From positions 1 through 64,000 of the forward strand of contig QPMI01000015.1 of assembly GCA_004431415.1 (NCBI GenBank): 64,000 bases of DNA. The letters are read 5' to 3'. Source of the stretch: Cyanophora paradoxa CCMP329. Taxonomy: Eukaryota > Plantae > Glaucophyta. Of the stretch, positions 1 through 49,273 are shown in pieces; the first letter of the stretch is position 1; each line of letters begins with the position of its first letter. The notes beneath the pieces are model-generated. The model saw only the letters and a program-made list of their open reading frames with translations. It ran no database searches and was not told where the DNA came from. A program made the translations under genes and the position numbers.

Positions 1-1352
1 CCACTCTTCAAAGACTTCGCTGAAAGAAGCCCTAACAACCCCAGAAGAGGCGAAAGCCTTTTTCCTGGATAACTCCCTTATGCTTGGTCTCGAATCCAAA
101 TCTAAGCCAGTTCTAGTTGTTGTGAATCCCAGCAATACTTTTGAGAATAATGTTGAAATCGCATTTCCTTCAAGCTACCTCGCTACAATTTCTGTGGAAA
201 ACTCGAACTTGCTTTCGACCTTCCAGCCATCACGTTTGCTGGTGATACTGACCTAGTTCGCAATGGATACACTCGCCCAGTTGGTGCTTTAGTTCAGCGA
301 CTTGAAATTACCTATGGATCTTACACCTACCATATTCCATCTGATTTCCTTGCTCATTTCCCCTGGTCTATTATTCGGAGGATCAACTAGCTAAAAAGAA
401 GCGATCAATGGGCATGGTTCATGGCATCCCTGCTCATGGAACCAACCGCCTTGGTGGCTCATTCTTTGTTGAAATCCCTGTGCCTTGGCTAAATCACTAC
501 CTTCCCCTTGGTGCTTTATCTGGTGAAATGGTTGTTACTGTTGGTTTAAGGATGCTGGAAAGGGTTATGTTGAAACTTCCTATGGTGGTCGCTCTCTCCC
601 TGTTGTTGGTGGGACAGTTGCTGATAAGACAGAAGATGATGGTCTTGGTGATACTGCTAATGCCACACTTGCCCATGTTGGTCAAAATATCACAACTTTC
701 AGTCTTGGTGCAACAACTCCTGTTATTTCTATTACTTCTCCTCGCCTTTACATGCATGCTATTAATGTTTCTGATGAGCTTTTCGCTACTGTCATTGAAA
801 AGGTTAAGACACTGGCATGGCTATTCCCTCCCTTGATATTGGATTTGTAGATGCTAGTGCTTTCCCTGCAAGGGCAATGCCCAACCCAATCGAATTAACC
901 TCTCTCAAATCTCAGGTCTTGTATATGCTCTGCTTGTTTCAGTTCGTGATCATGAAACTGTTGACAAATCCAATGGCTCCCACAGTGTTCTTAAGACCTA
1001 TGCCAACTCCAAAGACATCACATTCACAACTGAAATAAATGGTCAGCGACTTTTTGCCACTGAGCCAATTTCCCTACTCAAAGGTGCTGAGCTAATTGCT
1101 GATGCCTTCAAATGCTCTAACATGGATAAGGTTGCTGATCGCTATGTCCTCTCAGGACTCCCATTCTGTCTTGATGGAGAAAAGGCAATTCGAAATATTG
1201 CCCAGTCTGGTTATGTTGATTTAACAAATTCCTCTTCTTCCTTCCTCACCCTCTACATGCCCTCAGATAAGGTAATCGATGTTAATGTTCGCGCTCTCAT
1301 GCATTCGTTTATAATTTTGGACAAGGATGGTTTAAGGCGTATAAATTTGTAG
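1..1352 (+). CDS. Double-jelly-roll major capsid protein; frameshifted, start probably just upstream of the window
   Basis: Joining frames gives FKLPRYNFCGKLELAFDLP..YTRPVGALVQRLEITYGS, FFVEIPVPWLNHYLPLGALSGEMVVTV, FTTEINGQRLF and QSGYVDLTN..DVNVRALMHSFIILDKDG. These resemble PLV/NCLDV MCP motifs (LPLxAL, SGxxD/N). The gene lies directly upstream of a packaging ATPase. Confidence 0.75.
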
Positions 1353-1417
1353 ATTGTTACGATATTCAGTCACCATGCATTATTTTTATCTGTATTTATT
1401 TAGAAAGATATACAACA

Positions 1418-2146
1418 ATGAATGATTTGGATGAATTTGTGGCTGGTGAAATGATAGAACCACCATTTCGAGTCCTAGCAATTGGGAAATCAGCAACTGG
1501 TAAATCAGAAGCTGTAAAATATTGGTTGAAGCAGTTGCATGATGCCAAAAGATTGATGTTGTATTAGTTGTGAGTGGAACCAGCTTCAATCATTCTGGGA
1601 TAAAGTTGCAACATTGCAACTGGGAAAATGGGATGCCCTTACATTGCTAAATTGCTAGATGAAAGGCAAGAGAAAATAGAAAAAGGTGAACCTGTTAACC
1701 AGTTATGTGTGGTTCTAGATGATTTAATCGATAATGAGATTGTAGACCTAACTCGTGATAAAATTATTGGCTCTCTGTATTCCAGAGGTCGCCATTCGAA
1801 AATATCCATTATCTGCATCACACAAAAGCTAAGGAAAGTCTCTTCGACTATTCGAGTTAATTCGGACTATGCTATGTTTTTAAGTGCTGCAAATCGCAAA
1901 GAACTGGAAGCCATAGAGGAAGAATACAATATAATGCGAAATAAAGAGGATTTTTACAAGATGTTTGAAGAGTATGTTCACTCCTATCAGTATATTATTT
2001 GGTCCTCTGCAAACTACTCAGTTAAATACTATGTAGATAAAGCTGAGCTTGTGAAAGATTTCCCATTTCCTCGCTTCCACAGAAAGCCAAAAAAGAAAGA
2101 AGATGAACTGAAACCTCCAGAGAAAGAGGAAGCCCTAAAGAAGTGA
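1418..2146 (+). CDS. A32/FtsK-like DNA packaging ATPase (frameshifted)
   Basis: ATG at 1418 reads MNDLDEFVAGEMIEPPFRVLAIGKSATGKS (Walker A). ORF 1628-2146 carries CVVLDD (Walker B) and the A32 motif SRGRHSKISIICITQ..IRVNSDY. Confidence 0.92.
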
Positions 2147-2224
2147 AAAGCCAAGTCCATAGCAATAAATTGATGCGATATAAACGCGGTTTATAAAATT
2201 ATCTCTCATTCTAATAAAGATACA

Positions 2225-2665
2225 ATGCCTCCCAAACGAAAGATAGGGATCCCAGCTGGGGCTGTTGGCTATTCAGGTGGTGGAAACAATGGATCCATTA
2301 ATACTGAACCAATGAAATTCAATGGTATGAATGAGGTGAAGCCCTCACAGCAAGAAGAGGACCCTCTTAATGCTGCCTATGAGGAATCAGTCGATGATAA
2401 AGCCCCACAGGCTTCAACCAGTGATCAACTCAACATCTCACCAGAAGCTTCGAAAATGAGGGCTGTTGCTGAGGGTGCCAGGCGAATTATTGGTGCTGCT
2501 GATGATAAAGGTTTAGGCTTGCAAGATCTATCACTGGCTCGCAAAGGTGAAGGTCTTAGTAAGGAATCAGACAAGGTAATCCAGTCCATGGCTGGTGAAG
2601 TCACATATAAGACTGCTCCCACTCAAAATATTCATCGAATTCCAAGGCTCAATGGGATGAGATGA
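2225..2665 (+). CDS. Hypothetical viral protein (146 aa, N-terminal MPPKRK)
   Basis: Intact ORF with an AT-rich upstream leader, co-oriented with the viral genes. Confidence 0.6.
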   Translation: MPPKRKIGIPAGAVGYSGGGNNGSINTEPMKFNGMNEVKPSQQEEDPLNAAYEESVDDKAPQASTSDQLNISPEASKMRAVAEGARRIIGAADDKGLGLQDLSLARKGEGLSKESDKVIQSMAGEVTYKTAPTQNIHRIPRLNGMR

Positions 2666-2922
2666 CTGCTAAACTCAAAGATCTGGAAGCCAAATCCAGT
2701 GCTTTGGAGCAGTATGTTACTGAGAAGAAAGAGAGAGCCAAGCTAAAGGAGATGCTTCGAAAGGAAGTTTATAAAATGGGCATTACTGGTGTCCCAGATA
2801 AACAGTTTATTGCTAAGAAAGAGAACCAAATCGATGAGCAAGCAGTAGATGAAATGAAAACAAAGACCCAAAAGGGAACCATTGAACCTGGTGCCACTAA
2901 AGCTGAAGTAGAAAAGGAGTAG
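2662..2922 (+). CDS. Hypothetical charged/coiled-coil viral protein (86 aa)
   Basis: ORF overlaps the previous stop (ATGA) and is K/E rich. It could be a frameshifted continuation of 2225-2665. Confidence 0.5.
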   Translation: MTAKLKDLEAKSSALEQYVTEKKERAKLKEMLRKEVYKMGITGVPDKQFIAKKENQIDEQAVDEMKTKTQKGTIEPGATKAEVEKE

Positions 2923-2979
2923 CTCCCACAGTATATAAAAGACGAGTTTGGCTTTAATTTTCTCTGTTTTATTAGAGAC

Positions 2980-3252
2980 ATGGATATAATACGAAAGTTT
3001 ATTGAGATGCTCAGTCTGCATGTGGTAAGCAATTGCCACAGTGGATGCTGTGACACAACAATAGAGTTTGAGATGTCAGATACTGAGGATAATGTATCTG
3101 AGGCAAGAGAGAGAAGGAGATCAACAGTTTCTGTGGAGTCAATGCCAGCAGACCCCACAGAGTATACATATGAGCAACAGGAGTATCCAAGGAGAAGTTC
3201 TCTGCCAGCAGAAAACGTTTTCTCTGGGAATATAAATGGAGGACACTATTAG
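2980..3252 (+). CDS. Hypothetical small viral protein with a CHSGCC motif
   Basis: Intact 90-aa ORF with an AT-rich leader. Confidence 0.5.
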   Translation: MDIIRKFIEMLSLHVVSNCHSGCCDTTIEFEMSDTEDNVSEARERRRSTVSVESMPADPTEYTYEQQEYPRRSSLPAENVFSGNINGGHY

Positions 3253-3481
3253 TTTAATCGAGTTTACCAGTGATGAACCTGTTACTGAGGGTTCTATTAG
3301 ACACATACTAGCAATGCAGAAACGATATAGAGAGGACCCAGAATATAGAGAGTATAAAAAGCAGCAAGCCCTGGCATCCTATTATCGCAGAAAAGCCCAA
3401 AAAGAGGAGCAGAGACCCAGAGGGAGACCGATTAAATATTATTTGCCTACTGATAGTAGCAATGGACCCCCAGGTCTATAA
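3236..3481 (+). CDS. Small basic protein with a C-terminal AT-hook-like motif
   Basis: QKRYREDPEYREYKKQQALASYYRRK..RPRGRPIKY; paralogous to 3634-3960. Confidence 0.65.
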   Translation: MEDTISLIEFTSDEPVTEGSIRHILAMQKRYREDPEYREYKKQQALASYYRRKAQKEEQRPRGRPIKYYLPTDSSNGPPGL

Positions 3482-3633
3482 GATAATTGAGAAAAAGCGG
3501 TCTCAGTATGCCACTGAGGCAGCTATAAAAGTTTACAGACAGGAACTGGTGTTCGCAACAAAAAATGACTTAAGGAAAAAGTAGATAGATTGTATTGAGG
3601 AAAAATTATTTTCGTATCTACTATTAAAGAGAA

Positions 3634-3960
3634 ATGCCGAATATCCGCAAGATACTCACAGATGATGAAAAAGCAGAGAAGCTGAGACTGAAAAGGGAGC
3701 AAGATGCCCAAAGAAAACGCGAAGCCTATCATAAAAAGAAGCAGGAACGATTATCCCAAGGAGCCGCTACAGTTCACACACCAGAAGAACTCAAAAAGAT
3801 TGCCCTCAGACACCAGAGGAAATACAGGGAAAATGAAGAATATCGCGAGCAAAAAAAGGCAAAAGCGCTGGAATATTACCACAAGAAGAAAGATGAACAG
3901 CCCAAGAAACCCAAAGAGCATAAACCGGTTGGAAGACCTCGGAAATATATCGAAGAATAA
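3634..3960 (+). CDS. Small basic protein with a C-terminal AT-hook-like motif
   Basis: QRKYRENEEYREQKKAKALEYYHKKK..KPVGRPRKY; paralogous to 3236-3481. Confidence 0.7.
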   Translation: MPNIRKILTDDEKAEKLRLKREQDAQRKREAYHKKKQERLSQGAATVHTPEELKKIALRHQRKYRENEEYREQKKAKALEYYHKKKDEQPKKPKEHKPVGRPRKYIEE

Positions 3961-4177
3961 ATTCTCGATCGAAACAAATTTTGTAGAAATCGATTTGATC
4001 GGAGGCAAAAAAATGACAGCTTTCTTCCCTCTTTTTTAAAACTGTACCTATATATCGAGACAGTATCCCGACCCAAAACTACTTAAGGACTTGGCAAATA
4101 ATAGGATATATATAAAAGACAATTCCTCCTTCCGAAATTATTTTCTTCGTTAAAGGTAGAAGTCCCCAAAATCGAAA

Positions 4178-6770
4178 ATGAACAAAATCGAGAAATTCGC
4201 CACCCCTGTTGAAAATGCTACATTCCTTAGTACTCTCATTGGTGATCGCAACAAGGTCACCCATGTATTTGATTCTGCCGAAGATGCCCTTGAAGCCATT
4301 GATAATAGCAAGGTTAAGACCTGGGCTGAATGCATTCAACCTGAGCAAGTGACCAGAGTTTACCTGGACCTGGATAAATTCGCTGATTTGAAGGAGAACA
4401 TTGCTGATAACTATGCTGAGGCGGAAACTGTTGTAAGAGAGATGAGAGATAAGCTATGGAAGCGATCTGGTACCACTTCTATTAACGATATTGCTGTTGC
4501 AGTTCGCCATAGAAGGGTTTATTTGATTAAGGAGGATGTCACCAAGTTCAAGATTTCAGCCCACTTTATTATTAAATCGCTTGCATGCAAACATGAAGAT
4601 ATCCCCAAGCTTTTCAAAGCGATGGGATTGGTGAAAAATGAGGATTATGACAGTGGAGTTTACAGCTCCACACAGAACCTAATCTGCCTCAATTGCTGCA
4701 AAGGTGAGACTCTGGATGCTCAAAATAAGTCGAAAAAAGATGTTGATAAAAACGTTTGCTTTAAGAAATTCGTTGACTGTGACAAAGTGTTAATGCGAAA
4801 TGAGGACTTCTTTGTATCTTACTTCTCAGCTACTACTAAACTTGTGGATGAATCAAATATTTCTGCATTTGCAAATTATACTCCTGAGCCAAAACCAGTT
4901 AAAAAGGAGCCAAAAAGTGATAAAGTGAAGACTGAGAAGGTAGAAGCTGAAAAAGACACTGAACCCGAAAATCCTGTTACTTTCGAACTGCTACAAAGTG
5001 TTATAATGGGTCTGAATGGTGAGAGAGCTAATGAGTATAAAACTTGGATTGATGTAGGACTGGTCATCATCAATGTTGGGGAAGACAACAAATTTACCCC
5101 TAAAATGCAGGCTGAACTCTTCCACCAATTCTCAGAACAGAGTGACAAGTATGATTATGATGAATGCCAGGAGAAGTTTACACAGCTTCGCAGAAGCAAG
5201 AAGAAGGCTGAGCCTGGCAAAGTGTTGACCTTCAAATCCTTGGTTTATTGGTTGAGCAAAGATAACAATGAGCTTTTCAAGGAACTCTTCCCCAAAAAGT
5301 ATGCATTCCTACCAGAGGACACAGATGAAATCGATTACAAGACTGCAAGTATCCCTCCTTTGGCTGAACATTACAATGTGCATAAGAGGTATTTCAATGC
5401 TCGAATGCATCATGTTGAAAATGTTGGTTGTGTGATGCTCTGGGATGAACAACTACTTTGCTGGATGCCCAAAGATATTGGGAAGCTCTCTACAAAGCAT
5501 TTCCCCCATTTGATGCATAAGGTGATTGTCAATGAGGGAACAGATAATGAGAAAGAGAAATGGGAGCAATCATTTAGGAAATGGATTGTGGATCCCACAG
5601 CCACAAGATCAACTTACATGGATTTCCTTCCCCCTCCTGCTACTCTCAGTGCAAAATGCAAGTCTGTATTTAATCTCTATCCAGGAATGAAGGTCGACCA
5701 TCAGCAATTCGAAAATGCTCCAGAGGATGTAACTGCTGAGATGATTAAGCCTTTCCTTGATCACTTGTTCTTAATGTCTGGTGAGGATCAAAATACCTAT
5801 GAATATCTGTTGAAATGGTTTGCCCACATGCTGCAAAAGCCTGGGGAACTCAATGGAGTATCCTTAATCTTCATTGGTGAACAGGGAACTGGTAAGAATG
5901 TGTTGGTTGATACTTTCCAAAAGAAGATACTTGGAGATGCCCTGAGTTATGCAACTGGTAAGCCAAAAGAGGATCTGTTTGGTCGATTTGCCCATAACAG
6001 AGAGGATAAGATCCTGATTGTTGTCAATGAAGCCTCAGGCAAGGACACATTCGAAAATAATGATATGCTCAAAGATCTCATAACTTCTGATAAGATTGTA
6101 ATTGAACACAAAGGGATAGATTCATACACAAAAAGCAACTTTGCCAGGATTATATTCACCAGCAATAACAACATTCCAGTAAAAATTGAAGCTGGAGATA
6201 GGCGATTTGTGGTTGTTGAAGTTAGTAAGAAATTCGCAAAGGATAGGTCATACTTCCTTCCACTTGTAAAATGGCTAAATGATCACTGCAATATTCGAAA
6301 CATTGCCCACTATTTGAGAACCAAAGTTGACTGTGAGGATGTGAACTGGATTGCTGATAGACCCCTTACAAATAAATACTATTTAGCCCAGCAGGTATGC
6401 GCCCAATCATTCTTATGTTCACTAAGTGGCTTGTGGATCGAGGCTTAATTTCCGAGAATAAATGCAAGTCTGGTAGCCTTGTGGAAACCTGGAAATGGTT
6501 CCAGGAGTTTATTACCAGCAACAAATATAAAAACGATTATAATAGTCGCAGATATTATACAGAAATGCGAAGTGTTACATATATCCAAGTGAAAACTACA
6601 AATGGCAAACAATACTATCATTTCTTGTTCCACAAGTATTTGAGGAATTCAGAAAGATGAAGCTTGTAGATGATGAGACCATTGAGGAAGAAGCTAATCC
6701 AAGGATGAAACAAGAACTACCTGCTGCTGATCCTGATGCATCAGATTATGACTCTGATGTTGAAGTTTAG
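4178..6770 (+). CDS. AEP primase / PriCT-2 / SF3 (D5-like) helicase; C-terminus continues through frameshifts
   Basis: AEP motifs VYLDLD, ISAH and DSGVY; PriCT-like YKTWIDVG..FSEQSDKY; Walker A GEQGTGKN; Walker B VVNE; motif C IIFTSNN; DRRF. ORF 6397-6660 and an acidic tail ending TAG at 6770 appear to complete the protein. Confidence 0.92.
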
Positions 6771-6780
6771 GTTTACTCAA

Positions 6781-6961
6781 AAGTGGACTCACAGTTGACT
6801 CAAATTTATCATAAAAGACCCAAACAGTCTTTTATTTATGGTTTATTTATCGATTAGGTTGACTAAGTGGGGGAGTTGACTCATTTTTTCACAGATTCTA
6901 AAAGAGGACTCTGCCCTAAAAAGAAATAAAAAGTGCCTCAACTCCACCCACTAAGTCAACC
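6781..6961. promoter_or_regulatory. Putative origin/iteron module (internal copy)
   Basis: AAGTGGACTCA..GTTGACTCA box, then the inverted pair GGTTGACTAAGTGGGGGAGTTGA / TCAACTCCACCCACTAAGTCAACC; collinear with 13233-13420. Confidence 0.55.
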
Positions 6962-7012
6962 AAAAAATGATTTAAGAGATAGAAAAATATATTTATATGT
7001 AACTAGTAAGAA

Positions 7013-7363
7013 ATGGCTGGAACAGATCATGATTCTGGATCGATCTATATGATTGAGAGTCAGGAAATGAACAAAGTCTACATAGGAAGAACCTCACAGC
7101 CACTTCAAAAAAGATGGAGACAACACAAATCAGGTCAAATGCCATCTACAGCAGACCTATGCAAGGCTTCTGATGTGAAGTTCTCAGTCCTGTATTCAAG
7201 TAAGAAGGGTGGGCATGAAGACCTAATGAACAGAGAAGCATATTACATGTATCTCTTTGAACCTTGGATAGTCAATTTACAAAAACCGAAATCCCGATTT
7301 AGGATTAATAGGTTTTTGCGATTCCATTCAGAGGAAGCCAGTGGATCCATTAAAACATTTTAA
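7013..7363 (+). CDS. GIY-YIG endonuclease
   Basis: GSIYMIE..KVYIGRT..LQKRWRQH..REAYY..VN matches the GIY-YIG catalytic pattern. Confidence 0.88.
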   Translation: MAGTDHDSGSIYMIESQEMNKVYIGRTSQPLQKRWRQHKSGQMPSTADLCKASDVKFSVLYSSKKGGHEDLMNREAYYMYLFEPWIVNLQKPKSRFRINRFLRFHSEEASGSIKTF

Positions 7364-7423
7364 ATTGCGTTTAGAACATCCTAAAATAAAATATCCCCTT
7401 AGAATAGGAACAAGTTAGGAATA

Positions 7424-10400
7424 ATGCCCCGAATTACCAACAAACTCATAAGGGAGAAGAAATGGGAACTCATGGGATTGCTGGGAACACTTTATGCAGC
7501 CCATGAAATTACAGAGGCTGAATATGACCGGGAAATAGATTTAATTGCAAAGGGCAGACCCACTTTAAGCAGATTAACCAGAAAAGCAAATAACCTATAT
7601 GATAAAATTGAAACCTTGGATGAATTGGATAGGCTTAGGCAAATAGAACCAGATGCAGAAGATGGAACAGCCATGAATGAATTATATCGCTGGCTCACTT
7701 ACAGAGCCAGAAGGGAAGTTGTTGTAGATGTGATTGAATTCCTGGATAGAATTGCTACATCCCTTCCAAATCGATTAAAGCAGGGTTTAGATCAATTCAG
7801 GGCAATCAAGGTTCGCTTGTCTTTTATCTGCAAGTTCGTTAAAGTGAGCAATCCACAGGTTTGGATATCGAAATACATTTACAGTGATTACTTTGTATTA
7901 ACCAGGTCGAGAAATATTCGAACTGAGCTGAATAAAGCAGCCCAAATGTGTCAGGAGCAGATGAATGTGGTTGATAGCTATCGCTTAGAAAGAATTGAAA
8001 TACTCAGAGTGGCTATTATGAGTTATGCTCCAACTGGTGGATGCTTTCTACAAACCCCAGAGTGGATTGCTAGGAAGAGAGCCACAGTAAATATTCGAAA
8101 TATTGATGATTCCTGCTTCGAAAATGCAATTTTGGCATATATTCACAGAAAAGCGATAAACTCCCATAAGAGGAATGAGCTTTCACAATATCGCAAATGG
8201 AAATACTCAGCAATCGCTTATAATCCGCTGGCTCTCAATTTCGATAACATCCCATTCCCTGTTGCCTGTGATGCTGATATTATTGATAAATTCGAGGCTC
8301 AAAATGCAGGCATTAGCATTAATATATTTGGAATCGATGGAGAGGTTATTTATCCCTGCATCAATCAAGTAACCCAGGCAGAAAGCATAAGGTTAATCTC
8401 ATGCTGATATTTGATGATGAAGGGAATGGTCACTATATTACAATCATGTCCCTTTCAAGGCTATTGAAAGTAAACCATGAAACATACAATGATCAGAAGT
8501 TACACTACTGTGACACATGCTTATCTCGATTCAGGTCTGAGGCTAAACTCACTGCTCATGTGGACTCAAACAGATGCATTGATTGGAGACTCTCAAAGGG
8601 AATCACACCAAAACCTGAGACCACCATAGAGTTTGGACTGAAAAACCTCAGGAAAACTGTTTGGCTTCCTGTTGTGGTTTACTGCAAGATTGAACATAGA
8701 AGCATCCCCATAGATGCATCGAAATCCAAGAGGGAAGTCTCAGCAGTCAACATTAGAATAGTCACTGGGGCAGATGTTCAAGATTTTCGATTTGAGGGTC
8801 AGGATCCAATGGAGGTCTGTTTGAATGCTTGGAATCCAAAGCAAGAGAGCTAATTGACTTCCTGTTTACCAATATTCCCATGAATGAACTCACAGATGAG
8901 CAAAAGGCTGTTTACAGGGCTACTAAACACTGTTACCTTTGCAGTGAGAGGTTCACTAAAGAAAACTTCAAATGCAGGGATCATGATCACCACACAGGTC
9001 ATTATATTGCTCCTGCATGCAGAAACTGCAATCTCCATAGGAGAATCTCAAAGCAAACCAAAGTTGCAGTTGTTGTTGACCAAATGGATGACTGTGGGAC
9101 ATTCATTTTCAGAAAAATAGCAGGCATGGGTGATAAAAAGCGAATCGAAATCCTTTCGAAAAACTTTGATCAATACCTGTCATTGCAATGGGGTCTTTAC
9201 AAGTTCATTGATGCAAGCAATTTCATGGATTTTGGAGCTGCTGATGTAGATGAGTTAATGAACAAATTCCAGGCTTTTAGAAGGCTTTCACACTCAGTAT
9301 ATGGATTGGACCCAGTTCATTATGTATCTGCACCTGGGTTATCTTGGGATGCTATGCTTAGGACCACCAAGGCAAAAATAGAGCTTATAAGTGATGTAGA
9401 GCAATACGAATTTGTTGAGAGGGAATCAGGGTGGCTTTGCAACAATGCCTTGTAGGTATGCTGAGGCTGATGGTGAAAACTCCCACATTATGCTGTTTGA
9501 TGCTAACAACTTGTATGGCTACTGTTTGAGTCAGCCAATCCCAGTTGGTGATTTTAGATGGGAGACCGAATTCAACCCACAAGATAACAGATCCAGTTTC
9601 CTGGAAGTTGATCTGGATTACCCAATTAGGCTATATCTAGACCACAGTGATTTCCCCCTAATTATTAACAAGAAAATAGTAGAATATGCAGAATTATCAC
9701 AATATCAAAAGAGCCTATTAGATCTCTCAGGAGAAGAGCTTGATAAAACCCCAAAGCTAACTGCAACCTTTGGTTCTGTGACCAACTATGTGATTTCTGA
9801 GCCTCTCCTACAGTATCTGTTGGACAAAGGGGTGATATTAAAGAAAATTCACAGGGTCCTATCATTTACTGTGGCTCCTGTAATGAAATCTTATATTGAG
9901 CTGAACACTGAGATGAGAAGGAAAGCAGTGAATAAATTCGAGGCTGATTTCTATAAACTGATGAATAATTCAATCTATGGGAAATGCATTGAATCATGTA
10001 GAGGTAGATCTGTGGTAAAGATTGCTAATACTGAGAAGCTATTTATGAAATATGCAGCTTCCCCATTGGTGAAATCAACAAGTCCCATAAACGAAAAAGC
10101 AGTTGCTTTTGAGTTTTACACAAAGCATGTGAAACTAGATAAGCCTGTTGCAATTGGGGCTTATGTTTTGGATGCAGCCAAACTGCATAATTACCAGTTC
10201 TTCTATGATACTGTAAGGTCCCAATGGACAAAAGCAAAGTTACTATTCCATGATACTGACTCCTTCTGTCTATATATTGAATCTAAGACCTTACAAAAAG
10301 ATATAGAGAATATATCCTATGCATTAGACCTTGGAGGTGATTCCAGAATGACCCCAGGTAAATACAAAAATGAGATGCCAGGTTCTGCTATATTGGAGTA

Positions 10401-10665
10401 TGTGGGTCTCAGAGCCAAAGTTTACAGTTTCAGAACTGCTGAGATTGAGAGGAGTAAGCTCTCTGGGACTTCAACTGAGGAACTCCAATTTAATGATTTT
10501 AAGGAGTGTTTATTTGCAGGTATCAGCAAGACTGTGACTGCAAAGCAGAAGAGAAGGGCAGATCACACAATAATAGATACTGTGAGTAGAAGGGTTGCCC
10601 TAAACTGCTTTGATGCAAAGAGATACATCTTACCAGATGGTATTAATTCTGTTCCTTTTAATTAA
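7424..10665 (+). CDS. Polinton-type protein-primed family B DNA polymerase, split over four frames
   Basis: N-terminal VNIRNIDDSCF..FPV..KFE..ISINIF..GHY; C2H2 finger CDTC..H; EndoVII-like CYLC..RDHDHHTG..CRNCN; YGLDPVHYVSAPGLSWDAML; motif A FDANNLYG; motif B YKLMNNSIYGK; motif C FHDTDS; C-terminal DAKRYI. Confidence 0.95.
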
Positions 10666-10668
10666 GAG

Positions 10669-12027
10669 ATGCCAGCAACTGGAAGAATAGTTAGAAGAAC
10701 CACTGAGCAACTGCAAGGTAACCTGTTGCCTATCACAATTCCAAAGGAGGAAAAAGGGGAATCTCGAATTGTTAAAAGTCTGAGATGAAAGAGCTTGTCC
10801 AGTAGAGATCCCAGTTGCTATTGCAGTGAAAGAAACCAGCAAGATTGCCAAGAGATTCTATGATGTGAGAACTGGTTACAAAGGGCTTCAAGCTATGAGG
10901 GCTGAGTTACCAGATGAATCCTATAAGCAGTTGCAAGAGTTCTATAAAAAACAAGAGGTAGTTCAGATCAATGCACCTGCTATATCTAGGAAGAGAGATC
11001 CCATGGTCCCAATTAGGCAACCCTTGATACCTATGTGATTGATTTGCTCTTTTTCCCAGCTTATAAGAAACAAAACAATGGCTATGATACATTTATGACT
11101 GCAATGGAATCAACACTGAGAACTGGGTATATCATACCTATAAGGGATAAATCAGCTCTCACTACATTGGCTGCATTTAAACAGCTTGAGATGAGAGTAG
11201 CAAGACCCATAGTAAAGGTTCAATCAGATGCTGGGAGTGAGTTCCAAAATCGAATATTCCAGGAATATTTATCTAGTAAATTCATAGAACACCAAGTGAG
11301 TGGAACTGCTGACCATAGAAGCCAAGGTCGAATTGAAGCCTTTAACAAGCAGATTAAGAGACTGATCACAAACTATTGCATAGCTAATAACACAGCTAGA
11401 TTCTTTGATGTGTTAGGTGATATTGAGTATAATTACAATAATACAGTTCACTCAGCTACTAAGATGAAGCCAGGCGAAACTACAGAGGAGCATTATAGGT
11501 ATATAGTGGGATTAGAAGATGAGAGATTCAAGAAATCAATAGCTTACCTTGATACCATGCAGCCTGGCATGTTTGTTAGAGTGAAAGTTGAGAAGAACCC
11601 CTTTGCTAAACAGGGTAACAATTGGTCTAGGATGGTTTACACAGTTGATAGTAGGGAAGGCTTTAAGTTTAAGCTAAGGAGTCCCAATGGTGAGATCATA
11701 GAAAACAGGTTTGCTTTCCATGAGCTGTTGCCTGTGAATGCAGTTGAATATCTAGAAACCCCTACAGTGGATGCCTTAGAGCAAGCCAAGGAGGAAGCTA
11801 GGGTTGATGCTGCTATAAGGAGAGAAGGCATAGAAGCTGCTAATGAAGTCCCAGATAAGCCTTTGATAGAGGCTAGGAAGGAGAAGGCTGGAAAAGTTAG
11901 CAGGGAACTCAAAAAGCTCACTATAGCAGGGACACAGAAACTTTCAGAAGTGAATAGCCAGAGATGGTATAATGACTTTCAGACTACTAAGGAGTCATAT
12001 ACAGCCCTAAACCTCAAAGAACACTAA
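10669..12027 (+). CDS. Retroviral-type (rve, DDE) integrase of Maverick type, frameshifted near the N-terminus
   Basis: FYDVRTGYKG..FYKKQEVVQI N-terminal part; catalytic IDL, QSDAGSEF and GRIEAFN; YNNTVHSATKMKP. The 10669 start is tentative. Confidence 0.92.
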
Positions 12028-12274
12028 GAGAAAGGACCAAAACTAGCTAGTTTCATAGCCGAAAACTCGTTTTTTCCAAATATATGTATGTGTGATATAC
12101 ATATATGCATATGATATACACATCAACGTGTAGATCTTCTCAAGCGCTTCACAATGCTATGCAGAACGCTGCAAGTTGACTATCTGGTGATGAGATACAA
12201 GCGTTTGAAGATGCCGACAATCGAAAAACCGAAACTTCGGCGAAACTTCGGCGAAATGTTTTATTCTTTATGGA

Positions 12275-12376
12275 AATCGATTTCATGTAATCGATTTCAT
12301 GTAATCGATTTCATGCAATCGATTTCATGTACGTAATCGATTTCATGTAATCGATATCATGTAATCGATTTCATTT
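12275..12376 (+). repeat. Tandem array of 14-bp AATCGATTTCATGT, about 7 copies
   Basis: Units read directly from the sequence. Confidence 0.9.
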
Positions 12377-12377
12377 A

Positions 12378-12908
12378 GCACGAATTATCTTTTAATTAGT
12401 GGTTTCAGGCACGAATTATCTTTTAATCAGTGGTTTCAAGCACGAATTATCTATCAATTAGTGATTTCAAGCACGAATTATCTTTCAATTAGTGATTTCA
12501 AGCACGAATTATCTTTTAATTAGTGGTTTTAGGCACGAATTATCTTTTAATCAGTGGTTTCAAGCACGAATTATCTCTTAATAAGTGATTTCAAGCACGA
12601 ATTATCTTTCAATTAGTGATTTCAAGCACGAATTATCTCTTAATTAGTGATTTCAAGCACGAATTATCTTTCAATTAGTGATTTCAAGCACGAATTATCT
12701 TTCAATTAGTGATTTCAAGCACGAATTATCTTTCAATAAGTATTTCAAGCACGAATTATCTTTTAATAAGTGATTTCAAGCACGAATTATCTTTTAATTA
12801 GTGATTTCAAGCACGAATTATTTTTTAATAAGTGATTTCAAGCACGAATTATGTGGTTTAAAGCACGAATTATGTGGTTTAAAGCACGAATTATGTGGTT
12901 TCAAGCAC
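12378..12908 (+). repeat. Tandem array of 31-bp GCACGAATTATCTTTTAATTAGTGATTTCAA (about 15 copies) followed by three 21-bp truncated units
   Basis: Head-to-tail units with point variation and no unique spacers. Confidence 0.92.
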
Positions 12909-13232
12909 ACCAATCAGATTGCGCCAAACATATATACATAAACAATATGACAATTAACACATCGCCGTGATCGTCATAATCTCCCGAGTCCGCCCGTGTG
13001 TCATATATATCATATACATATGCAACGTCATGATGACGTCATATCGAAAACTCCCATACAAAACACTAAAAAGCATGTATCTCTTCACCAACTCATCATC
13101 TCACAAAGATAAAAACAGATTCGGAATCCTCTCAACGAGACCAGCGTGACTATGTAAGTATCATAGGCTCAATAATTCATATGTTTCTAAGCATCTGCCC
13201 TAGATTCCCCCTATTATATTATATTTATATTT

Positions 13233-13670
13233 AAGTGGACTCAAGGTTGACTCATATTAATCGTAAAAGTAGTAAAAGTATATGGATTTTGTTACGAATT
13301 CAATGGGAGGGTTGACTAAGTGGGTTGAGTTGACTCAAATTTCACAGGAAATATTTGGGACCTAAAGTTTTCTAAAAAGGATTTGAAAAAATGTGTCAAC
13401 TCCCCCCACTTAGTCAACCCTGACCATAAACAGTAAGGATTTGAGCTAACATGTATCACAAAGTGAACATTTTGAGTCCACTTAGAAGATCCACTTTTGA
13501 AATCCAAGTTGATTTTGCTTGAAATTTCAAAGTTGATCTAAAAGTGAGTCCACCCTGATTGATTATGGTAACAAAGTGGACTAAGTTGACTAAGTTGAGT
13601 CATCTTAAGAAATTCAAAGAGACTAAGAGTTCAAAATGTTTATGAAAAGTGAGTCAACTTAGACCACTTA
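13233..13670. promoter_or_regulatory. Subterminal iteron-like module (GTTGACT/GTGGACT boxes in both orientations)
   Basis: 13233-13420 is collinear with 6781-6961. Further boxes lie at about 13475, 13542, 13575-13602 and 13647-13669. Confidence 0.55.
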
Positions 13671-13720
13671 TGATAACAAAGTTAAATATTTATTTGATTT
13701 AATCGGAAAAGAACATGATT

Positions 13721-13945
13721 TAATCGAATTTATTGATATAATTCCGATTAGATTCATTTAGGATTCAATTAAGATCAATCGAAGTTATTGATATAATTCC
13801 GATTAACTACAATTAAGATACAATATCGATTAATCGAGTTTATCGATATAACATCGATTAAATTAATTGAAAATGCATTTACAAATATGAAAATTCATGT
13901 GAAAATTCAAATAAATTAATCGATTTTATTGATATAACATCGAAT
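13721..13945 (+). repeat. Four degenerate AT-rich repeats AATCGANTTTATYGATATAAYWYCGAWT
   Basis: Copies at about 13721, 13777, 13832 and 13918. Confidence 0.75.
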
Positions 13946-13946
13946 C

Positions 13947-14019
13947 ACACATATGAATATTCATATTTTAATCCTGAGGCGGAACGCCGAGGGATTAAAA
14001 TATGAATATTCATATGTGT
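13947..14019 (+). repeat. Terminal palindrome/hairpin of the viral element
   Basis: Perfect 28-bp inverted repeat (13947-13974 / 13992-14019) around TGAGGCGGAACGCCGAG, at the AT/GC boundary. Confidence 0.92.
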
Positions 14020-14150
14020 CCGGCGGCGCGCACGGTCTCTCGGGTCAGACGCGCACAGCGAGCGGGTTGCTGACTCAGTGAGCTCTTCCGGGATCCTTCA
14101 AGGCTTCAAGGCTTGCGCCCGCGTTCCAGCCTCTTTCTTCAAAGCATAAG

Positions 14151-16189: not shown

Positions 16190-18152
16190 TCAGCACATTA
16201 GCTTCCAGCGCTCCATGTACGCCTCGTCGGGGTCGACGAAAGTCCCGCTGAAGTACTCCGACTGCCGCGCCGCCAGGAACCTGGGGGAGGGGAGGGCGGG
16301 GGGGGGGGGGAGGGGGGGGAGGGGGGGGCGAAAGAGGCACGCCGTCAAATTTAAATGAGAGAAGAAAGCGGCAGCACAGCCGTGAAATCTAGTTCGAACT
16401 AGGGTGGAGGCGGGGAGGGCGCCGGAGGGGTACGTACGCGAGGAGGTCGTCGAGGTGGTCGGAGAGCGAGCGGAGGCTCGCGTCGTCCAGCGTCGAGACG
16501 TCCACCAGCGTCGGCAGCTTCACTGCGCATGCGCCGTCCGTCGTGAGACGGGCGGGCGTACTAAGCGAGGGAGAGGGGTAGGTGGATTAGCATGGAGCCA
16601 TCCGTTAGCGGTTCAACAGCGTCGGCAGCTTCAGCCAGTGACAGATAGACAGATAGAATAGACAGATAAGACGCAGCTAGGGGGGGGGGGGGGGGGGGGT
16701 AGATGGACGGATTGGATGGGCAAAGATTTGATCCGGGCGCACCGAAGAGGCGGAGGAGGTGCTCGGCGCCGTAGAGCTCCGAGGCCGGCGTCTCGGGGTG
16801 CTTGTCCGCCAGGGCCTGCAGGGGTAGACGGATCGAATTCGAATTCGAATTTGATCCGGATCAAATTCGATTCGAACTCGAACCTGGAACTGGGGCCGCT
16901 CGAATCGGTACAGGAGCATTACGCCCAGCGCCTTGTCGAAGTACTCCTTCAGGCCCGACACGAGCTCTCCGACCGCCTCGGCCGCCCCCTTGCGCGCCCC
17001 GGGGCCGTCTCCGCCCCGCGCGCCGCCGCCGTCCCCCGCCGACGGCGCCGGCGAGTTGCCCGCAGAGCTCCCCGCCCCGCCCGCCGCGGCCGTCCCCGCC
17101 GCCGCGCCGCCGTCCGCCGCGTCGCCGCTGCGCGCGCGCGCGGGCGGCCCCTCTTAGCCGCGCGCAGGGCGAGCGGAGGGGCGGCCACGCGTGCCTTGCG
17201 CCCTCTCCGGAGCCGGGAGCCGGGGCCGCCTCGATCTGAGCGATCTTGTGCGCCCGGTACGCCTCCAGGATGTCAGCCACCGTCGGGCTCCGTGGCACGG
17301 GAAGCAGCTGCCGGCCCGTCCCCGTCAGCTTCGCCGGCGGAGGAGCGCGGCGGGCGGGCGCGGGCGCGGGCGCGGGCGCGGACCTTCTGGTCCTTGAACA
17401 GCTTTTCCCATTCTTCAACGAGGAAAGCCTTCAGCGACTTGGGGATCTGGTACGTAAGGTCGAACTGCTCGGCCTGGTCTCCGCCCTGCGCCGCCCGGCG
17501 CCGCCGGCGCCGCCGTCAGCCCGCCCCGCCCCCGCCCCGCGCGCCCCGCGCGGGCCCCACGGCACGCACGTCGGAGGATCCGTCCGTTCGTCGCTTCTTG
17601 GGTCGCACGTCGTCCCCTGCGGCGGCCCGGCGGGCACCGTCGGCGGGATGCGGTACGGGACGGCGCAGCCGCCGGGCGGGCGGCGGGCGGCGCACGCTTG
17701 CGTCCCGGCTTGAGCCGCTTGAGCTCCAAAGCGCGCTTCTGCGCCTCTTCAATCGAACGCTTGCTGACCTCCTCGTTGTCGGGCGTGTGTTCCAGCAGCC
17801 ACTCTTCAGGGAGCCACTCGTCCCAGCTGCGCGGAGGCGAGCCCAGACCCTCAGCTAGACAGGGCGTACGGCACGAGCCGCGCGGCTCCCCAGCGCACTT
17901 CTTGTTCCAGCCCTGGTAGTGGACGAGATACTCGGGCTTTCCGTCCGCGTTGACCTTGATCTGGATCACCTGCAACACGAGCACGATAAGAGCCTCGCCG
18001 GGAGCGAACGTGGCGCTATCGGCTTTCTCGCGAGGCCCGGGGTGGGCTCGCCGGGTCCGCGGTCATACCTTCGCATCGTAGTAGAGCGCGGTGCAGCGGT
18101 GGCCTGCGAACACGCGCTGCGAGAGGGTGAACTTCCCGGAGACCTCCGGCAT
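16190..18152 (-). CDS. EAF3: MRG15/Eaf3 family chromatin protein (chromo-barrel + MRG domain), spliced
   Basis: YYDAK..YLVHYQGWNKK.WDEW chromo-barrel; MRG motifs IPKSLKAFLVEEWE, LPVPRSPTVADIL, GLKEYFDKALGVMLLYRFERPQF and YGAEHLLRLF. Confidence 0.93.
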
Positions 18153-24700: not shown

Positions 24701-27700
24701 GCCGGCGCACGAAGGGCGAATTCCAGCGAGTCAGGAGAGCTCGGGCCAGATCTGCCCGGGCCGCCGCCTAGATCTAGATCTGCCCGGGAGGGTACGCCTG
24801 CCCGGGGCTGACCCCGGACGCTTCGTTCGCAGTTCAACTCGCAGGACCTCATCCTCGCCGCCTACACCAACGACGTCGCCGTGCGCCCCGTACCCCGTAC
24901 CCCCCCCGCCCCGTACCCCGTACCCCCCCCCCCGCCCCGTACCCCGTACCCCGCGGCCGGCCGTGCCAGCTCCGCACAGGCGTCGTGCTTTTAGCTCGAA
25001 CAGCTAATCGCACAGAAGAAGATAGAAGGCGAGGTTTAGAAGCCTCTGACGGCCGCCCGGGGCGCGCGCGCGCGCGCGCGTGCAGCGGGCGGAGGAGGCG
25101 TCGTGCTTTTAGCTCGAAGAAGCTTAGGAAGCTTCAGAGTAGGAAGCGCCTGACTTCGTTCGCAGCGGGCGGAGGAGCTTATGGCGGAGGGCGTCGACGT
25201 CAACGCCGCCGACTACGACGACCGCACCGCCCTCCGTCCGCCCCGCCCTCCGCCCGCCCCGCCCCGCCCCGCCCCGCCCCGCCCCGCCCCGCCCCTCGGG
25301 CTCTAGCGCCCACATCAAATCTTGGAGGGTGAGCCCGCCCTGACGCCCTACCCCCCGGCAGACGTGGCGGCGAGCGAGGGCCACACCGCCATGACCGAGT
25401 TCCTCCTCGCCCACGGTACCCCGGCCCCGCTTCTCCCCCCCCCCCGAAAAGAAGAAGAGGCCGAGATACTTCGTTCGCAGGGGCCGACCCGAGCGTGGTG
25501 GACCGTTGGGGGGCCACGCCGGCCCAGAACGCCGCGGCCTTCAAGGCGCGCTTTTTTGAAATTCAAATTTTTGAATTCAAAAATTTGAATTCGAATCGCA
25601 GAACGCGGCGCTGGCGGCGCGGCTCGAGCGGGCGGAGCGGGAGGCGCGGGACGATTCGATACCCCACTCGATCCCGGAGGGGGACGAGGAGGCGGGGGAC
25701 GACGTTCCGGCGCCCGCCACCGTACCCCGCACCGTGCGCCTTTCCCGTTCAGCTGAGCCTTCGTTCCCTTCGACGTTTCCTGAGCGGTTTTCAGGCCGGC
25801 TCGGCCCGGTCCACGCCGGTACCCGGGCAGCAGCAGGGGCCGGTCAAGGGCCCCTCGCCTGTACCCGGGCGCGTTGCGTCCCCCGTCGTGTCGGGGCGCG
25901 GCTCGCCCCTGAGGGAGCAGCTGATCCAGCAGGCCCTCGCCTCGGCCGCCGCCGCCGCCGCCGCCACACCCGAGGTCTTCCTTTCGCTCGCTGTCCGCTT
26001 GCCGCCCCGGCCCTCCCCCTCACGCGATCGGGCCGGCGCAGGGGACCCGACCGGGCGCCGCGGGCCAGTCGCCCCGTGACGCCGCCGCCGCCGCCGCCGG
26101 CGGCGGCGGCGCGGACCCACAGCAGCAGCGGGGCCGCCGGCCGCTGCAACTCCGCTCGTCCTCCTTCGGCAGCGGCGGCGGGGGCGCCGGGCCGCTCGAG
26201 CCGCGGCACGCCTCCGCCGCTCCGACGCTGGCGGGGATCGGCGAGGGCAGGGAGCGTGAGCCCGTTCACCACTCCTCCTCCGAGGGGCACATCTCGCTCG
26301 CCCCGCCGCGCGCCAGCGTCGGCGGGGGCGCCGCGTCCCGAGCGGCCTCGCTCGACATGCCCCGCCCGATCCTGAGCGGCGCCGCCGGCGTCGCCGGCAC
26401 CACCGCCACCGTCGGGCGCCCCGTCCCCCCCTCGGCCCGGCGTGGCTCCGTGGTTCTCCCCTCCGGCGTGGTCGGCCCCGCCGGCGTGCCGGCGCCCCTT
26501 TCCTCCGGCTCCCGCTCGCAGGCGATGCCGGCCGCCGCCCTCGGCGTCCCCGCCGTGGCGCTCTCCTCGTCCTACTCGGACTCGCTGGCGGCCGGGGCCC
26601 TCCACAGGCAGCTCACGGGCCTCCGCCGCCGCCACGTCGGCGCCGCCGCCGCCTCCCTCTTCGCACCCGAAGTCCACCCCCCCTCCACCCCAACAGCGGC
26701 GGCGGCGCCTCACGCGCACGGTGGCCGCCGCCTTTCTATCTCCATAGATCACCTGAGCGGCCCCGCGGACCCCGCCTCGGGTCCCAACGCGGCCGCCTCG
26801 GCTTCGTCGCGGCGCCGGGTCACGGTGGTTCCGGAGCGGGAGGCGCGTGCGGGGCGCATGCGGGCGGGGCGCCTCATGTACGTCGAGGCGGGAACGGGCA
26901 TGGAGACCTTCCTCGCGATGGCCGGTGCGCTGTTTGTCGCTGCTTTAGATCCCACTGGCCGCCTTTGGCTTCAGTATAGCTCCGCGATTTAAATTCTGTA
27001 ATCAACTAAGCTTGCTTCGGATTAACTTAGCATTAATATTGCGGTTAGCTGTTCTTGCTTTAGATCCCAGCGAGTCCCTGGCCGCCTTAAGCTTTCCCTT
27101 CGGCGTAGCTTCGCGCACTCCTACTCCCTCCGACCCCTTCTGCGCAGGGGCGCGGCTGCAAATGGCTGCGCGGGCGGCGCTGACGCCGCGGGGCGCCGTC
27201 ATCGACGACACGTCGCTCCTCGGCCAGGTTCGCCCTCCCTTTTAGTCAGCTTCTTCTTCTTAATGCCTGAGAGGAAGAGGGAGAGACGATAAAGAGAAAG
27301 CTCCAGCTTTGCCGCGCGATCGCTCTAAAATTCATCTGTAGTTTCCTCAGCTTCTTTAGCTTAAGCTTAAGCTTCTTCCTCAGCCCGTCCTTCGTGATCA
27401 TGATCGGCTTCCAACGCTTAAGAGAAAGAAGCCCGAGGCCTTCCGATAGCTTGCCCTTGCCGCGCGACTGCTCTCCTGCTTGCGCTTAGTTTTTAGCCTT
27501 TCTCCGAGGCTCCTAGCTCCGTCCTCTGAGCCCCTCCGCCATCCCCTTCGCCCCTTCCTTCGACCGGGCTCTAGCCTGATCTGCGCCTGGCCCCTGACAT
27601 TGCCCGACTTCGTTCGCGCAGGACGACGTCGTGGTGATCAGCGACCAGGTCGAGGGCGCCGGGCCCGGCCCCGGCCCCTTCGACCTGCGGGCGGGGGAGG

Positions 27701-49182: not shown

Positions 49183-49273
49183 CGAAGGTCAAGGTAAATT
49201 CAGAAGGGCTGGTTTAATAAAGGCCCAATGTAAATTAAAGGTAGTGGTTAATTACAAGTTATGATTTTAAACT

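What the first reader, a model, noticed from the sequence alone, without database searches (positions are those of the whole stretch)
13947..14019. Viral element ends in a strand-asymmetric fold-back hairpin positioned to self-prime replication
Seen: a perfect 28-bp stem (ACACATATGAATATTCATATTTTAATCC and its reverse complement) whose last base is the last AT-rich base before host DNA. The 17-nt centre can continue the stem as T.G, tandem G.A/A.G, four G-C pairs and a GAA triloop. Each arm also contains the 16-bp palindrome ATATGAATATTCATAT. Known: tandem sheared GA pairs and GNA triloops stabilise ssDNA hairpins, whereas the complementary strand would have TC/TC mismatches and a TTC loop. Canonical Polintons are modelled as protein-primed with 5'-AG..CT-3' ends; parvoviruses self-prime from 3' hairpins. 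Inference: the fold is favoured on the + strand, whose 3' end is here, so base 14019 pairs with 13947 and gives a 3'-OH pointing into the genome. This suggests hairpin-primed or hairpin-reconstituted-origin replication in an integrase-bearing Polinton-like virus.
Basis: partly seen in the sequence, partly recalled or inferred. Interest (0 to 1): 0.9.

Follow-up and report, generated by a model that had tools for sequence, protein, structure and literature searches.

The report
Fixed-orientation hairpin caps integrated virus end
A small integrated DNA virus, present in many copies, ends exactly in a 73-base mirror-image sequence that nearly always faces the same way, so it likely folds into a protective, self-repairing cap on the exposed 3' strand during copying rather than flipping each round as in adeno-associated virus; similar ends were recently reported in related viruses.

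Summary
The hairpin is real and terminal. The stem is a perfect 28 bp. Public contigs show the empty site, fixing the end at 14019|14020, plus six sibling host flanks. Loop pieces are 37-43 times deeper than neighbouring host DNA (about 75-85 ends) and match letter for letter.

Orientation is almost fixed. Contig breaks in two informative runs exclude a 50:50 flip/flop mix; one reversed-looking end shows in each of two runs. That argues against routine AAV-type hairpin transfer.

The element carries a primase-helicase and a protein-primed PolB. The PolB keeps the terminal-protein fold but lacks the family's Ser-Gly motif. Best reading (0.45): a Streptomyces-like 3'-overhang cap, with ends completed without inversion. 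Self-priming with non-inverting resolution stays open (0.3).

Terminal palindromes and a hairpin-priming model are already in print for Halocafeteria virophages and a PLV (bioRxiv 10.64898/2026.07.28.741278). This scan earlier noted 75- and 95-base hairpin ends on other elements of this genome (unchecked). The left end, this copy's junction and the TSD were not seen directly. New variant of a known kind.

The parts
13947..14019 (+). Terminal 73-nt fold-back palindrome; 14019 is the last base of the element
13947..13974 (+). Inner arm (28 nt), starting 5'-ACACA; would template the terminal 28 nt
13975..13991 (+). Asymmetric centre: T.G, tandem G.A/A.G, four G-C pairs, GAA loop closed by G:C
13992..14019 (+). 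Outer arm (28 nt), ending TGTGT-3'; likely the integrase end
   Evidence: role inferred
13951..13966 (.). 16-bp self-palindrome in the inner arm
14000..14015 (.). 16-bp self-palindrome in the outer arm
13885..13912 (.). Two overlapping degenerate copies of the 16-bp palindrome (2 and 3 mismatches)
14020..14025 (+). First host bases; candidate 6-bp target-site duplication (inferred, not shown)
   Evidence: empty-site contig starts 24 = 30-6 letters upstream
12900..14019 (.). Multi-copy AT-rich end region (presumed TIR; its inner limit was not mapped)
13308..13421 (.). Mirror-repeat block (17-bp arms, 80-bp spacer); candidate origin, also found after the primase-helicase gene
   Evidence: role inferred
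6857..6961 (.). Second copy of the mirror-repeat block, downstream of the primase-helicase gene
12377..12852 (.). 31-bp tandem array, 15.4 copies
157..1352 (+). Likely major capsid protein gene, in several frames
   Evidence: Atlas feature score 0.96 for the last piece, recognition below threshold
1418..2146 (+). A32-like packaging ATPase, in two pieces
   Evidence: Pox_A32, 5.8e-8
4178..6448 (+). D5-like primase-helicase (PriCT_2 plus SF3-type helicase region)
   Evidence: (PDB primase 6k9c, 5e-16)
7013..7363 (+). GIY-YIG endonuclease
   Evidence: 9.9e-11
7424..10665 (+). Protein-primed PolB in four frames: terminal-protein fold, vOTU-like region, Endonuclease VII-like segment, polymerase
10669..12027 (+). 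RVE-type integrase, in pieces; intact relative P0001 is 79% identical

Best explanation
The 73-base palindrome is the conserved, almost always same-oriented end of a multi-copy Polinton-like virus, and it likely folds on the 3'-terminal strand when that strand is left single-stranded, where it would act as a nuclease-resistant, self-repairing cap while the end is likely completed by protein- or primase-started fill-in that does not invert the loop. Steps: (1) SHOWN: the palindrome is the end, is near-identical across copies and is orientation-fixed. (2) INFERRED: the primase-helicase starts at the mirror-repeat blocks and leaves a 3' overhang at each end. (3) PREDICTED: the overhang folds (-30.6 kcal/mol); G.A pairs and the GAA loop compact the tip, and the inner arm can template repair of a nibbled 3' end, which would keep both arms perfect. 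(4) INFERRED: the terminal-protein PolB (from an intact copy) or the primase opens the fold and copies from base 14019, using the ACAC repeat. This gives an open duplex end of one orientation. (5) INFERRED: the integrase joins 3'-T14019 to host DNA. Rare reversed ends would come from occasional fold-back extension and transfer. It works like a Streptomyces telomere but is not one.
For: The end is exact and multi-copy. Orientation: the X1 piece 13945-13980 and the X17 piece 13946-13991 run unbroken across the arm start. In a toy k=31 graph of 78 ends the X1 pattern arose in 200 of 200 trials with no flop, 13 of 200 with one, 2 of 200 with two and 0 of 200 with three or more. Both replication systems are present. 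The PolB N-terminus has the Y-family little-finger fold (Z 9.1 and 8.3, model residues about 70-204; top Foldseek rows, best E 3e-3), which 10.1101/2024.03.18.585575 ties to PRD1-like terminal proteins (passages). Cys231 is invariant in 80 of 80 rows. The 5'-ACACA end resembles the Maverick (AC)3A motif (PMC8097293). A repeat block after the primase-helicase gene recurs about 600 bp from the end. Precedent: Streptomyces 3' overhangs carry G:A-sheared GNA hairpins, are patched by terminal-protein priming and are repaired on a fold-back (PMC4513846, PMC5449611; passages).
Against: No direct evidence of 3' overhangs, 5' proteins or free genomes. A flush 29-bp fold is a ready primer and would bury the template end that protein priming needs. 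The predicted linking loop departs from the family: the column with Ser in 75 of 80 rows holds Asp here, and the following Gly is missing. The intact relative P0002 shares this, so protein priming may be altered or lost. In Halocafeteria the palindromes go preferentially with non-pPolB replication genes. The strand preference is only 1.1 kcal/mol in the model and the loop has the weaker G:C closure. Fixed orientation was read from integrated copies only; recent spread from one founder, or integrase choice, could give the same picture. Two of four runs (X15, X3) do not constrain the flop count through their break points.
Confidence: 0.45

Rival explanations
1. Self-priming without inversion: the 3' end folds and primes second-strand synthesis. 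The closed end is then re-opened on the same strand (for example by the integrase at 14019), or the dimer junction is resolved asymmetrically as at the left end of minute virus of mice, so one orientation persists.
For: Base 14019 pairs flush with 13947. The terminal-protein linking motif is altered in this lineage. The palindromes are tied to non-pPolB replicons in Halocafeteria, where this model is drawn. Asymmetric resolution and a flip-only left end are described for autonomous parvoviruses (PMC1185569, passages). The element carries two nuclease domains.
Against: No HUH/NS1-type nickase was found among the 19 plus 11 ORFs or pieces scanned from the visible 14 kb. The terminal-protein fold and vOTU Cys are kept. 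A slide-back-type ACAC end would have no replication role.
Confidence: 0.3
2. The palindrome is an integrase or DNA-binding-protein site, or a by-product of fold-back end repair, kept by copying and with no role in starting replication.
For: The 16-bp dyad recurs in degenerate form 50-60 bp inward. The Halocafeteria authors name accidental annealing as an alternative. A recent burst would also give identical ends.
Against: A plain duplication would leave a symmetric or random centre. Here 4 of 4 non-Watson-Crick oppositions are G.A or G.T on the 3'-terminal strand (about 0.012 by chance, post hoc). High-depth hairpin pieces have 0 mismatches while the window differs from sister copies at several sites further in.
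Confidence: 0.12
3. AAV- or poxvirus-type flip/flop ends exist in the free virus, but only one orientation integrates, or all copies descend from one recent founder.
For: One foreign-flank, arm, loop contig in reversed sense in X1 (record 3, depth 49.6, 1 mismatch) and one loose end before 13947 in X3. An Endonuclease VII-like segment could resolve cruciforms (inference).
Against: A 39-of-78 mix never gave the X1 or X17 pattern in 200 trials. Both ends would need the same form to integrate. The reversed contigs could be solo or rearranged hairpins.
Confidence: 0.1
4. Assembly fold-back or chimera artefact.
For: This copy's junction was not bridged in four runs. The viral genes carry many frameshifts.
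Against: Overlapping pieces cover the whole hairpin with 0 mismatches at high depth in each run. Six sibling flanks join at the same base, and the empty site aligns from exactly 14020.
Confidence: 0.03

Closest known systems
Palindrome-ended endogenous virophages (subtypes 1, 2, 5, 6) and PLV subtype 4 of Halocafeteria seosinensis (bioRxiv 10.64898/2026.07.28.741278; abstract, passages and section 7 read, supplements closed)
   Same: Terminal palindromes inside TIRs next to the host, RVE integrase, hairpin-priming model proposed; some of its virophages carry pPolB plus a D5 primase-helicase.
   Different: There the subtype 5 palindrome is 52 nt and palindromes go mainly with non-pPolB replicons. 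Loop chemistry, strand asymmetry and flip/flop were not addressed in the text I read. Here the hairpin is 73 nt with G.A/GNA motifs, fixed in orientation, beside a terminal-protein PolB.
Polintons/Mavericks (PMC8097293, passages and section 7; 10.1101/2024.03.18.585575, passages and section 6)
   Same: pPolB with TP and vOTU regions, RVE integrase, A32 ATPase, likely MCP, short-repeat end motif (ACAC), likely 6-bp TSD.
   Different: Extra D5-like primase-helicase; fold-back terminus (no mention of 'hairpin' in the second paper); altered TP linking loop.
Streptomyces linear-replicon telomeres (PMC4513846, PMC5449611; passages)
   Same: 3'-strand hairpins with G:A-sheared GNA loops, terminal-protein priming, fold-back repair of the end.
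   Different: Bacterial, several short palindromes and the Tap/Tpg proteins; here one long hairpin in an integrating eukaryotic virus. A working likeness only.
Parvovirus rolling-hairpin ends (AAV: PMC11359079; MVM/LuIII: PMC1185569; passages)
   Same: Terminal fold-back that offers a 3'-OH; MVM-like left ends keep one orientation.
   Different: No Rep/NS1 in the visible part; dsDNA-virus gene set; no AAV-like flip/flop mix.

Membership tests
Polinton/Maverick-like virus | Protein-primed PolB | tested here: met
   DNA_pol_B_2 9.3e-10; N-terminus matches an adintovirus protein at 2.7e-16 and a MELD virus PolB at 2.8e-6; the gene is in four frames in this copy
Polinton/Maverick-like virus | Terminal-protein fold at the PolB N-terminus | tested here: met
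   Little-finger-like fold, Z 9.1, rmsd 3.1, 110 aligned; model pLDDT 84.9
Polinton/Maverick-like virus | Ser/Tyr linking residue with a nearby Gly/Pro | tested here: inconclusive
   The Ser column (75 of 80) holds Asp; Ser and Tyr follow; no Gly/Pro in the loop
Polinton/Maverick-like virus | RVE integrase | tested here: inconclusive
   rve E 5e-4, 20.7 bits, below the 32.6 cut-off; intact relative P0001 also weak (0.015)
Polinton/Maverick-like virus | A32-like packaging ATPase | tested here: met
   Pox_A32 33 bits against a cut-off of 22.8
Polinton/Maverick-like virus | [quoted passage not shown] | tested here: inconclusive
   Atlas top hits are capsid clusters at 0.96 but recognition is 1857, below 2300; no Pfam hit
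Polinton/Maverick-like virus | TIRs at both ends | not testable with these tools
   The left end is outside the window and no genome is held; the end region is multi-copy
Polinton/Maverick-like virus | 5-6-bp target-site duplication | tested here: inconclusive
   The empty-site contig starts 24 letters upstream in 3 of 3 runs that hold it; fits a 6-bp TSD or a heterozygous site
Polinton/Maverick-like virus | Short-repeat end motif (AG, AGT or AC types) | tested here: met
   5'-ACACA..TGTGT-3', one repeat shorter than (AC)3A
Polinton/Maverick-like virus | Maturation protease and minor capsid protein | not tested
   Not seen in the visible 14 kb; may lie left of the window
Palindrome-ended PLVs/virophages (Halocafeteria type) | Palindrome at the very end of the element | tested here: met
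Palindrome-ended PLVs/virophages (Halocafeteria type) | Non-pPolB replication gene | tested here: met
   A primase-helicase is present, alongside a pPolB
Palindrome-ended PLVs/virophages (Halocafeteria type) | Same integrase clade or palindrome sequence | not testable with these tools
   The preprint's sequences and supplements were not available
AAV-type rolling-hairpin replicon | Mixed flip and flop ends | tested here: not met
   Integrated ends only; informative in X1 and X17
AAV-type rolling-hairpin replicon | HUH Rep/NS1 nickase | tested here: inconclusive
   None in the visible part; the rest of the element is unseen
AAV-type rolling-hairpin replicon | Single-stranded packaged genome | not testable with these tools
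   No virion data
Streptomyces-type telomere | G:A-sheared GNA hairpin on the 3' strand | tested here: met
   By sequence only; the structure is predicted
Streptomyces-type telomere | Several packed palindromes with Tap and Tpg | tested here: not met
   One long terminal hairpin; eukaryotic-virus gene set
Streptomyces-type telomere | Terminal-protein-primed end patching | not testable with these tools
   Needs biochemistry

The most novel reading that the evidence does not exclude
This lineage is switching from protein priming to hairpin priming. Its terminal-protein domain has lost the family's Ser-Gly motif, the folded 3' end primes replication, and the retroviral-type integrase itself re-opens the closed end at base 14019 and transfers it. 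One enzyme would then be both telomere resolvase and integrase, which would explain the single orientation.
Probability: 0.15. Interest if true: 0.85.

Novelty: new variant of a known kind. Interest (0 to 1): 0.5.

Why it matters
How Polinton-like viruses and virophages copy their ends is largely untested, and the hairpin model published for palindrome-ended elements has no experimental support in the text I read. This element gives a sharp test case: an exact end, many near-identical copies, an insertion absent from three runs (so likely recently mobile), and a nearly fixed loop orientation. The orientation already argues against the simplest AAV-like version among integrated copies. It leaves two alternatives that can be separated at the bench: a capped overhang with protein priming, or self-priming without inversion. 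The altered terminal-protein loop marks a possible transition between priming modes.

Tried and rejected
No whole genome was available, so the left end could not be read.

Sequence searches: the 28-nt arm had 0 matches in viral contigs. The 17-nt centre had 9 matches, none with flanking arms (0-2 perfect pairs), so they are chance.

Related PolB loci: 4 viral, 10 metagenome and 1 duplicate. None holds a comparable terminal hairpin, but they are 28-42% identical and are not known to reach true ends, so this is no evidence of absence. Searches with the integrase and with P0006 found no loci. The primase N-terminal region found no homologues and the Atlas could not read it; its AEP-like motifs are recalled, not tested.

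Read evidence: no strand-switch joints were listed, but contigs would hide most. X17 has no cover at 14025-14060, which proves nothing. The 9-base match between this flank and a sibling flank was considered as a misjoin seed and judged unlikely: that 9-mer occurs 12 times in about 100,000 host positions, and the table is selected for flanks that resemble the window.

Other: ViennaRNA gives the two strands the same energy for the inner 11-mer, so it cannot test a GNA or sheared-pair bonus. PMC6061790, PMC12220804, PMC11296320, PMC13236599, PMC10175614 and 10.64898/2026.10.13.758929 (passages) added nothing on terminal hairpins of PLVs. Ten frames from 45.5-64 kb had no Pfam hit.

Full report
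OBSERVATION. The window holds a perfect 28-bp inverted repeat at 13947-13974 and 13992-14019 around a 17-nt centre. It is the longest with spacer up to 100 in 64 kb, and 200 composition-matched resamples of the end region reached 11 bp at most. The centre opposes T.G, G.A, A.G, four G-C pairs and a GAA loop. DNA folding gives -30.6 (+) and -29.5 (-) kcal/mol. The difference comes from the T.G pair, and the inner 11-mer scores -2.8 on both strands, so the model barely tests strand preference. G:C closure of a GNA loop is about 3 kcal/mol weaker than C:G (PMC3201870, abstract). That tandem G.A pairs in a pyrimidine-GA-purine context are stable is recalled; the context is met on both sides here. 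All 4 non-Watson-Crick oppositions are G.A or G.T on the 3'-terminal strand, about 0.012 by chance and chosen after the fact.

THE ELEMENT. Bases 1-14019 are 31-44% GC against 52-81% beyond. They encode a likely capsid protein (weak), an A32 ATPase, a PriCT_2/SF3-type primase-helicase, a GIY-YIG nuclease, a PolB in four frames with an Endonuclease VII-like segment, and an RVE-like integrase in pieces. Whether the frameshifts are decay or assembly error was not settled. No whole genome is held. I did not test the host's lineage; earlier scan notes call it a glaucophyte alga (unchecked).

IS IT THE END? Twenty runs of one organism hold the stretch. I laid 4 of them, all contigs; they may be one clone line and X17 may be the assembly's source. 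In X1, X15 and X3 a host contig aligns from 14020 onward, with 24 unrelated letters before it, at the depth of neighbouring host DNA. This is the empty site, and it fixes the boundary at 14019|14020. Six different sibling flanks join the arm at that base or its mirror, after chance matches of 0-9 letters (21 of 22 loose-end rows shown). Pieces holding the loop have depth 3917-4167 (X1), 8000-8083 (X15), 7308-7446 (X3) and 2413-2675 (X17), which is 37-43 times the host contig. Host bubbles split about evenly, so the host looks diploid and this is roughly 75-85 ends; depth is a rough measure and free DNA could add to it. The interior next to the hairpin has 0.94-0.98 of the loop depth in three runs and 0.61 in X1, where that contig is longer. 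So nearly every end of this type carries the hairpin. The window's own junction was not bridged by any listed contig (32 of 271 pieces shown). The empty contig starts 24 = 30-6 letters upstream in 3 of 3 runs, as a branch after a 6-bp TSD would give in a k=31 graph. A heterozygous site would do the same, so the TSD is inferred only.

ORIENTATION. Pieces overlap by 30 letters, so k=31. Single-copy branches do break them: the contig joined at 13984 goes with breaks at 14013 in X1, X15 and X17, and X3, which lacks it, is unbroken there. A reversed (flop) end would put a host base before arm plus loop and break the path at 13947. In X1 the piece 13945-13980 (depth 3917) and in X17 the piece 13946-13991 (depth 2413) cross that point. 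In a random-letter simulation of 78 ends the X1 pattern arose in 200, 13, 2, 0, 0 and 0 of 200 trials for 0, 1, 2, 3, 5 and 39 flops; the X17 pattern in 200, 68, 28, 10, 1 and 0. X15 is uninformative (its listed piece starts at 13951). X3 breaks at 13947 and shows one foreign flank there. X1 has one 1426-letter contig at single-copy depth that runs from foreign sequence into arm and loop with one mismatch. These are flops or solo hairpins; contigs cannot tell. AAV ends occur as flip or flop through terminal resolution (PMC11359079, passages), so routine hairpin transfer is not supported among integrated copies. Autonomous parvoviruses can keep one left-end orientation by asymmetric resolution (PMC1185569, passages), so self-priming is not excluded.

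PRIMING MACHINERY. The PolB N-terminal piece has 1153 relatives at E up to 0.001. The best, P0002, is an intact 1083-aa protein, 40% identical over this piece. I aligned 79 of the 150 listed hits, chosen by length and coverage. The model (pLDDT 84.9) matches Y-family little-finger domains over residues about 70-204 and adintovirus and MELD proteins. That fold is the proposed origin of PRD1-like terminal proteins, which are followed by a vOTU protease (10.1101/2024.03.18.585575, passages and section 6). Cys231 is invariant (80 of 80). The loop where the linking residue should lie differs: the column with Ser in 75 of 80 rows has Asp here, followed by Ser-Tyr and no Gly. Of 150 hits, 125 could be anchored: 108 had a Ser-Gly-type motif, 1 (P0002) had Asp-Ser-Tyr and 16 had other forms, three of them similar acid-x-Tyr forms; 25 could not be placed. 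So the domain is kept but its priming chemistry is uncertain. The 5'-ACACA end resembles the Maverick (AC)3A motif (PMC8097293). A mirror-repeat block after the primase-helicase gene recurs at 13308-13421, a lead taken from earlier scan notes.

MECHANISM. The reading that fits most observations is a 3'-overhang cap. Internal primase-driven copying would leave the 3' strand exposed. It would fold into a compact tip, use its inner arm to repair its last bases, and be filled in without inversion before the integrase joins T14019 to the host (0.45). Streptomyces telomeres do this with G:A-sheared GNA hairpins, terminal-protein priming and fold-back repair. Self-priming with same-strand or asymmetric resolution is close behind (0.3). 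A binding-site or by-product reading (0.12), hidden flip/flop (0.1) and artefact (0.03) follow. Only the anatomy, copy number, boundary and orientation are shown.

NOVELTY. Terminal palindromes next to TSDs, with a hairpin-priming model, are reported for Halocafeteria virophages and a PLV; that preprint's supplements were closed and may hold sequences that bear on loop type. Three searches aimed at Polinton, PLV or virophage hairpin ends and the passages I read found no report of G.A/GNA tips or orientation bias; subscription papers are mostly not covered. This scan has unchecked notes on 75- and 95-base hairpin ends of other elements in this genome, one also concluding fixed orientation. A look-up with this hairpin's sequence found no look-alike window, so it may be a third sequence family. 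Verdict: real, new variant of a known kind, interest 0.5.

Noticed in passing
window 13984 (runs X17, X1, X15): One contig joins a long foreign sequence to the hairpin at the loop tip, between 13983 and 13984: an insertion or break at the tip of one copy. The motif I searched for from it is not in the window.
   Followed up: partly
window 6857-6961 and 13308-13421: The same mirror-repeat block follows the primase-helicase gene and recurs in the end region; related words extend over 13246-13660. Candidate origin.
   Followed up: partly
window 7967-7981 (PolB residues 182-186): The predicted terminal-protein linking loop reads Asp-Ser-Tyr instead of the family's Ser-Gly-Trp. Shared with P0002; similar forms in P0005, P0006 and P0059.
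   Followed up: partly
window 12275-12908 and 13720-13863: Tandem arrays of 14, 31, 21 and 27/55 bp in the end region; the 14-bp unit holds a self-complementary ATCGAT core.
   Followed up: no
window 8796-9455: Endonuclease VII-like segment inside the PolB; a candidate for cruciform resolution (speculative).
   Followed up: no
window 157-12027: Capsid, ATPase, PolB and integrase genes are all frameshifted while the 756-aa primase-helicase frame is long and open; decay or unpolished assembly is undecided.
   Followed up: no
window 25560-25591 and 16845-16870: Perfect AT-rich palindromes (16- and 13-bp arms, no loop) in the GC-rich host DNA.
   Followed up: no
window 47000-53000 and 60000-64000: GC drops to 0.53-0.57, possibly other mobile DNA; the ten frames scanned from 45.5-64 kb had no Pfam hit.
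   Followed up: partly
window 14020-14028: Two sibling flanks begin with the same 4 and 9 bases as this flank; a possible target preference, but the table is biased towards flanks like the window.
   Followed up: partly
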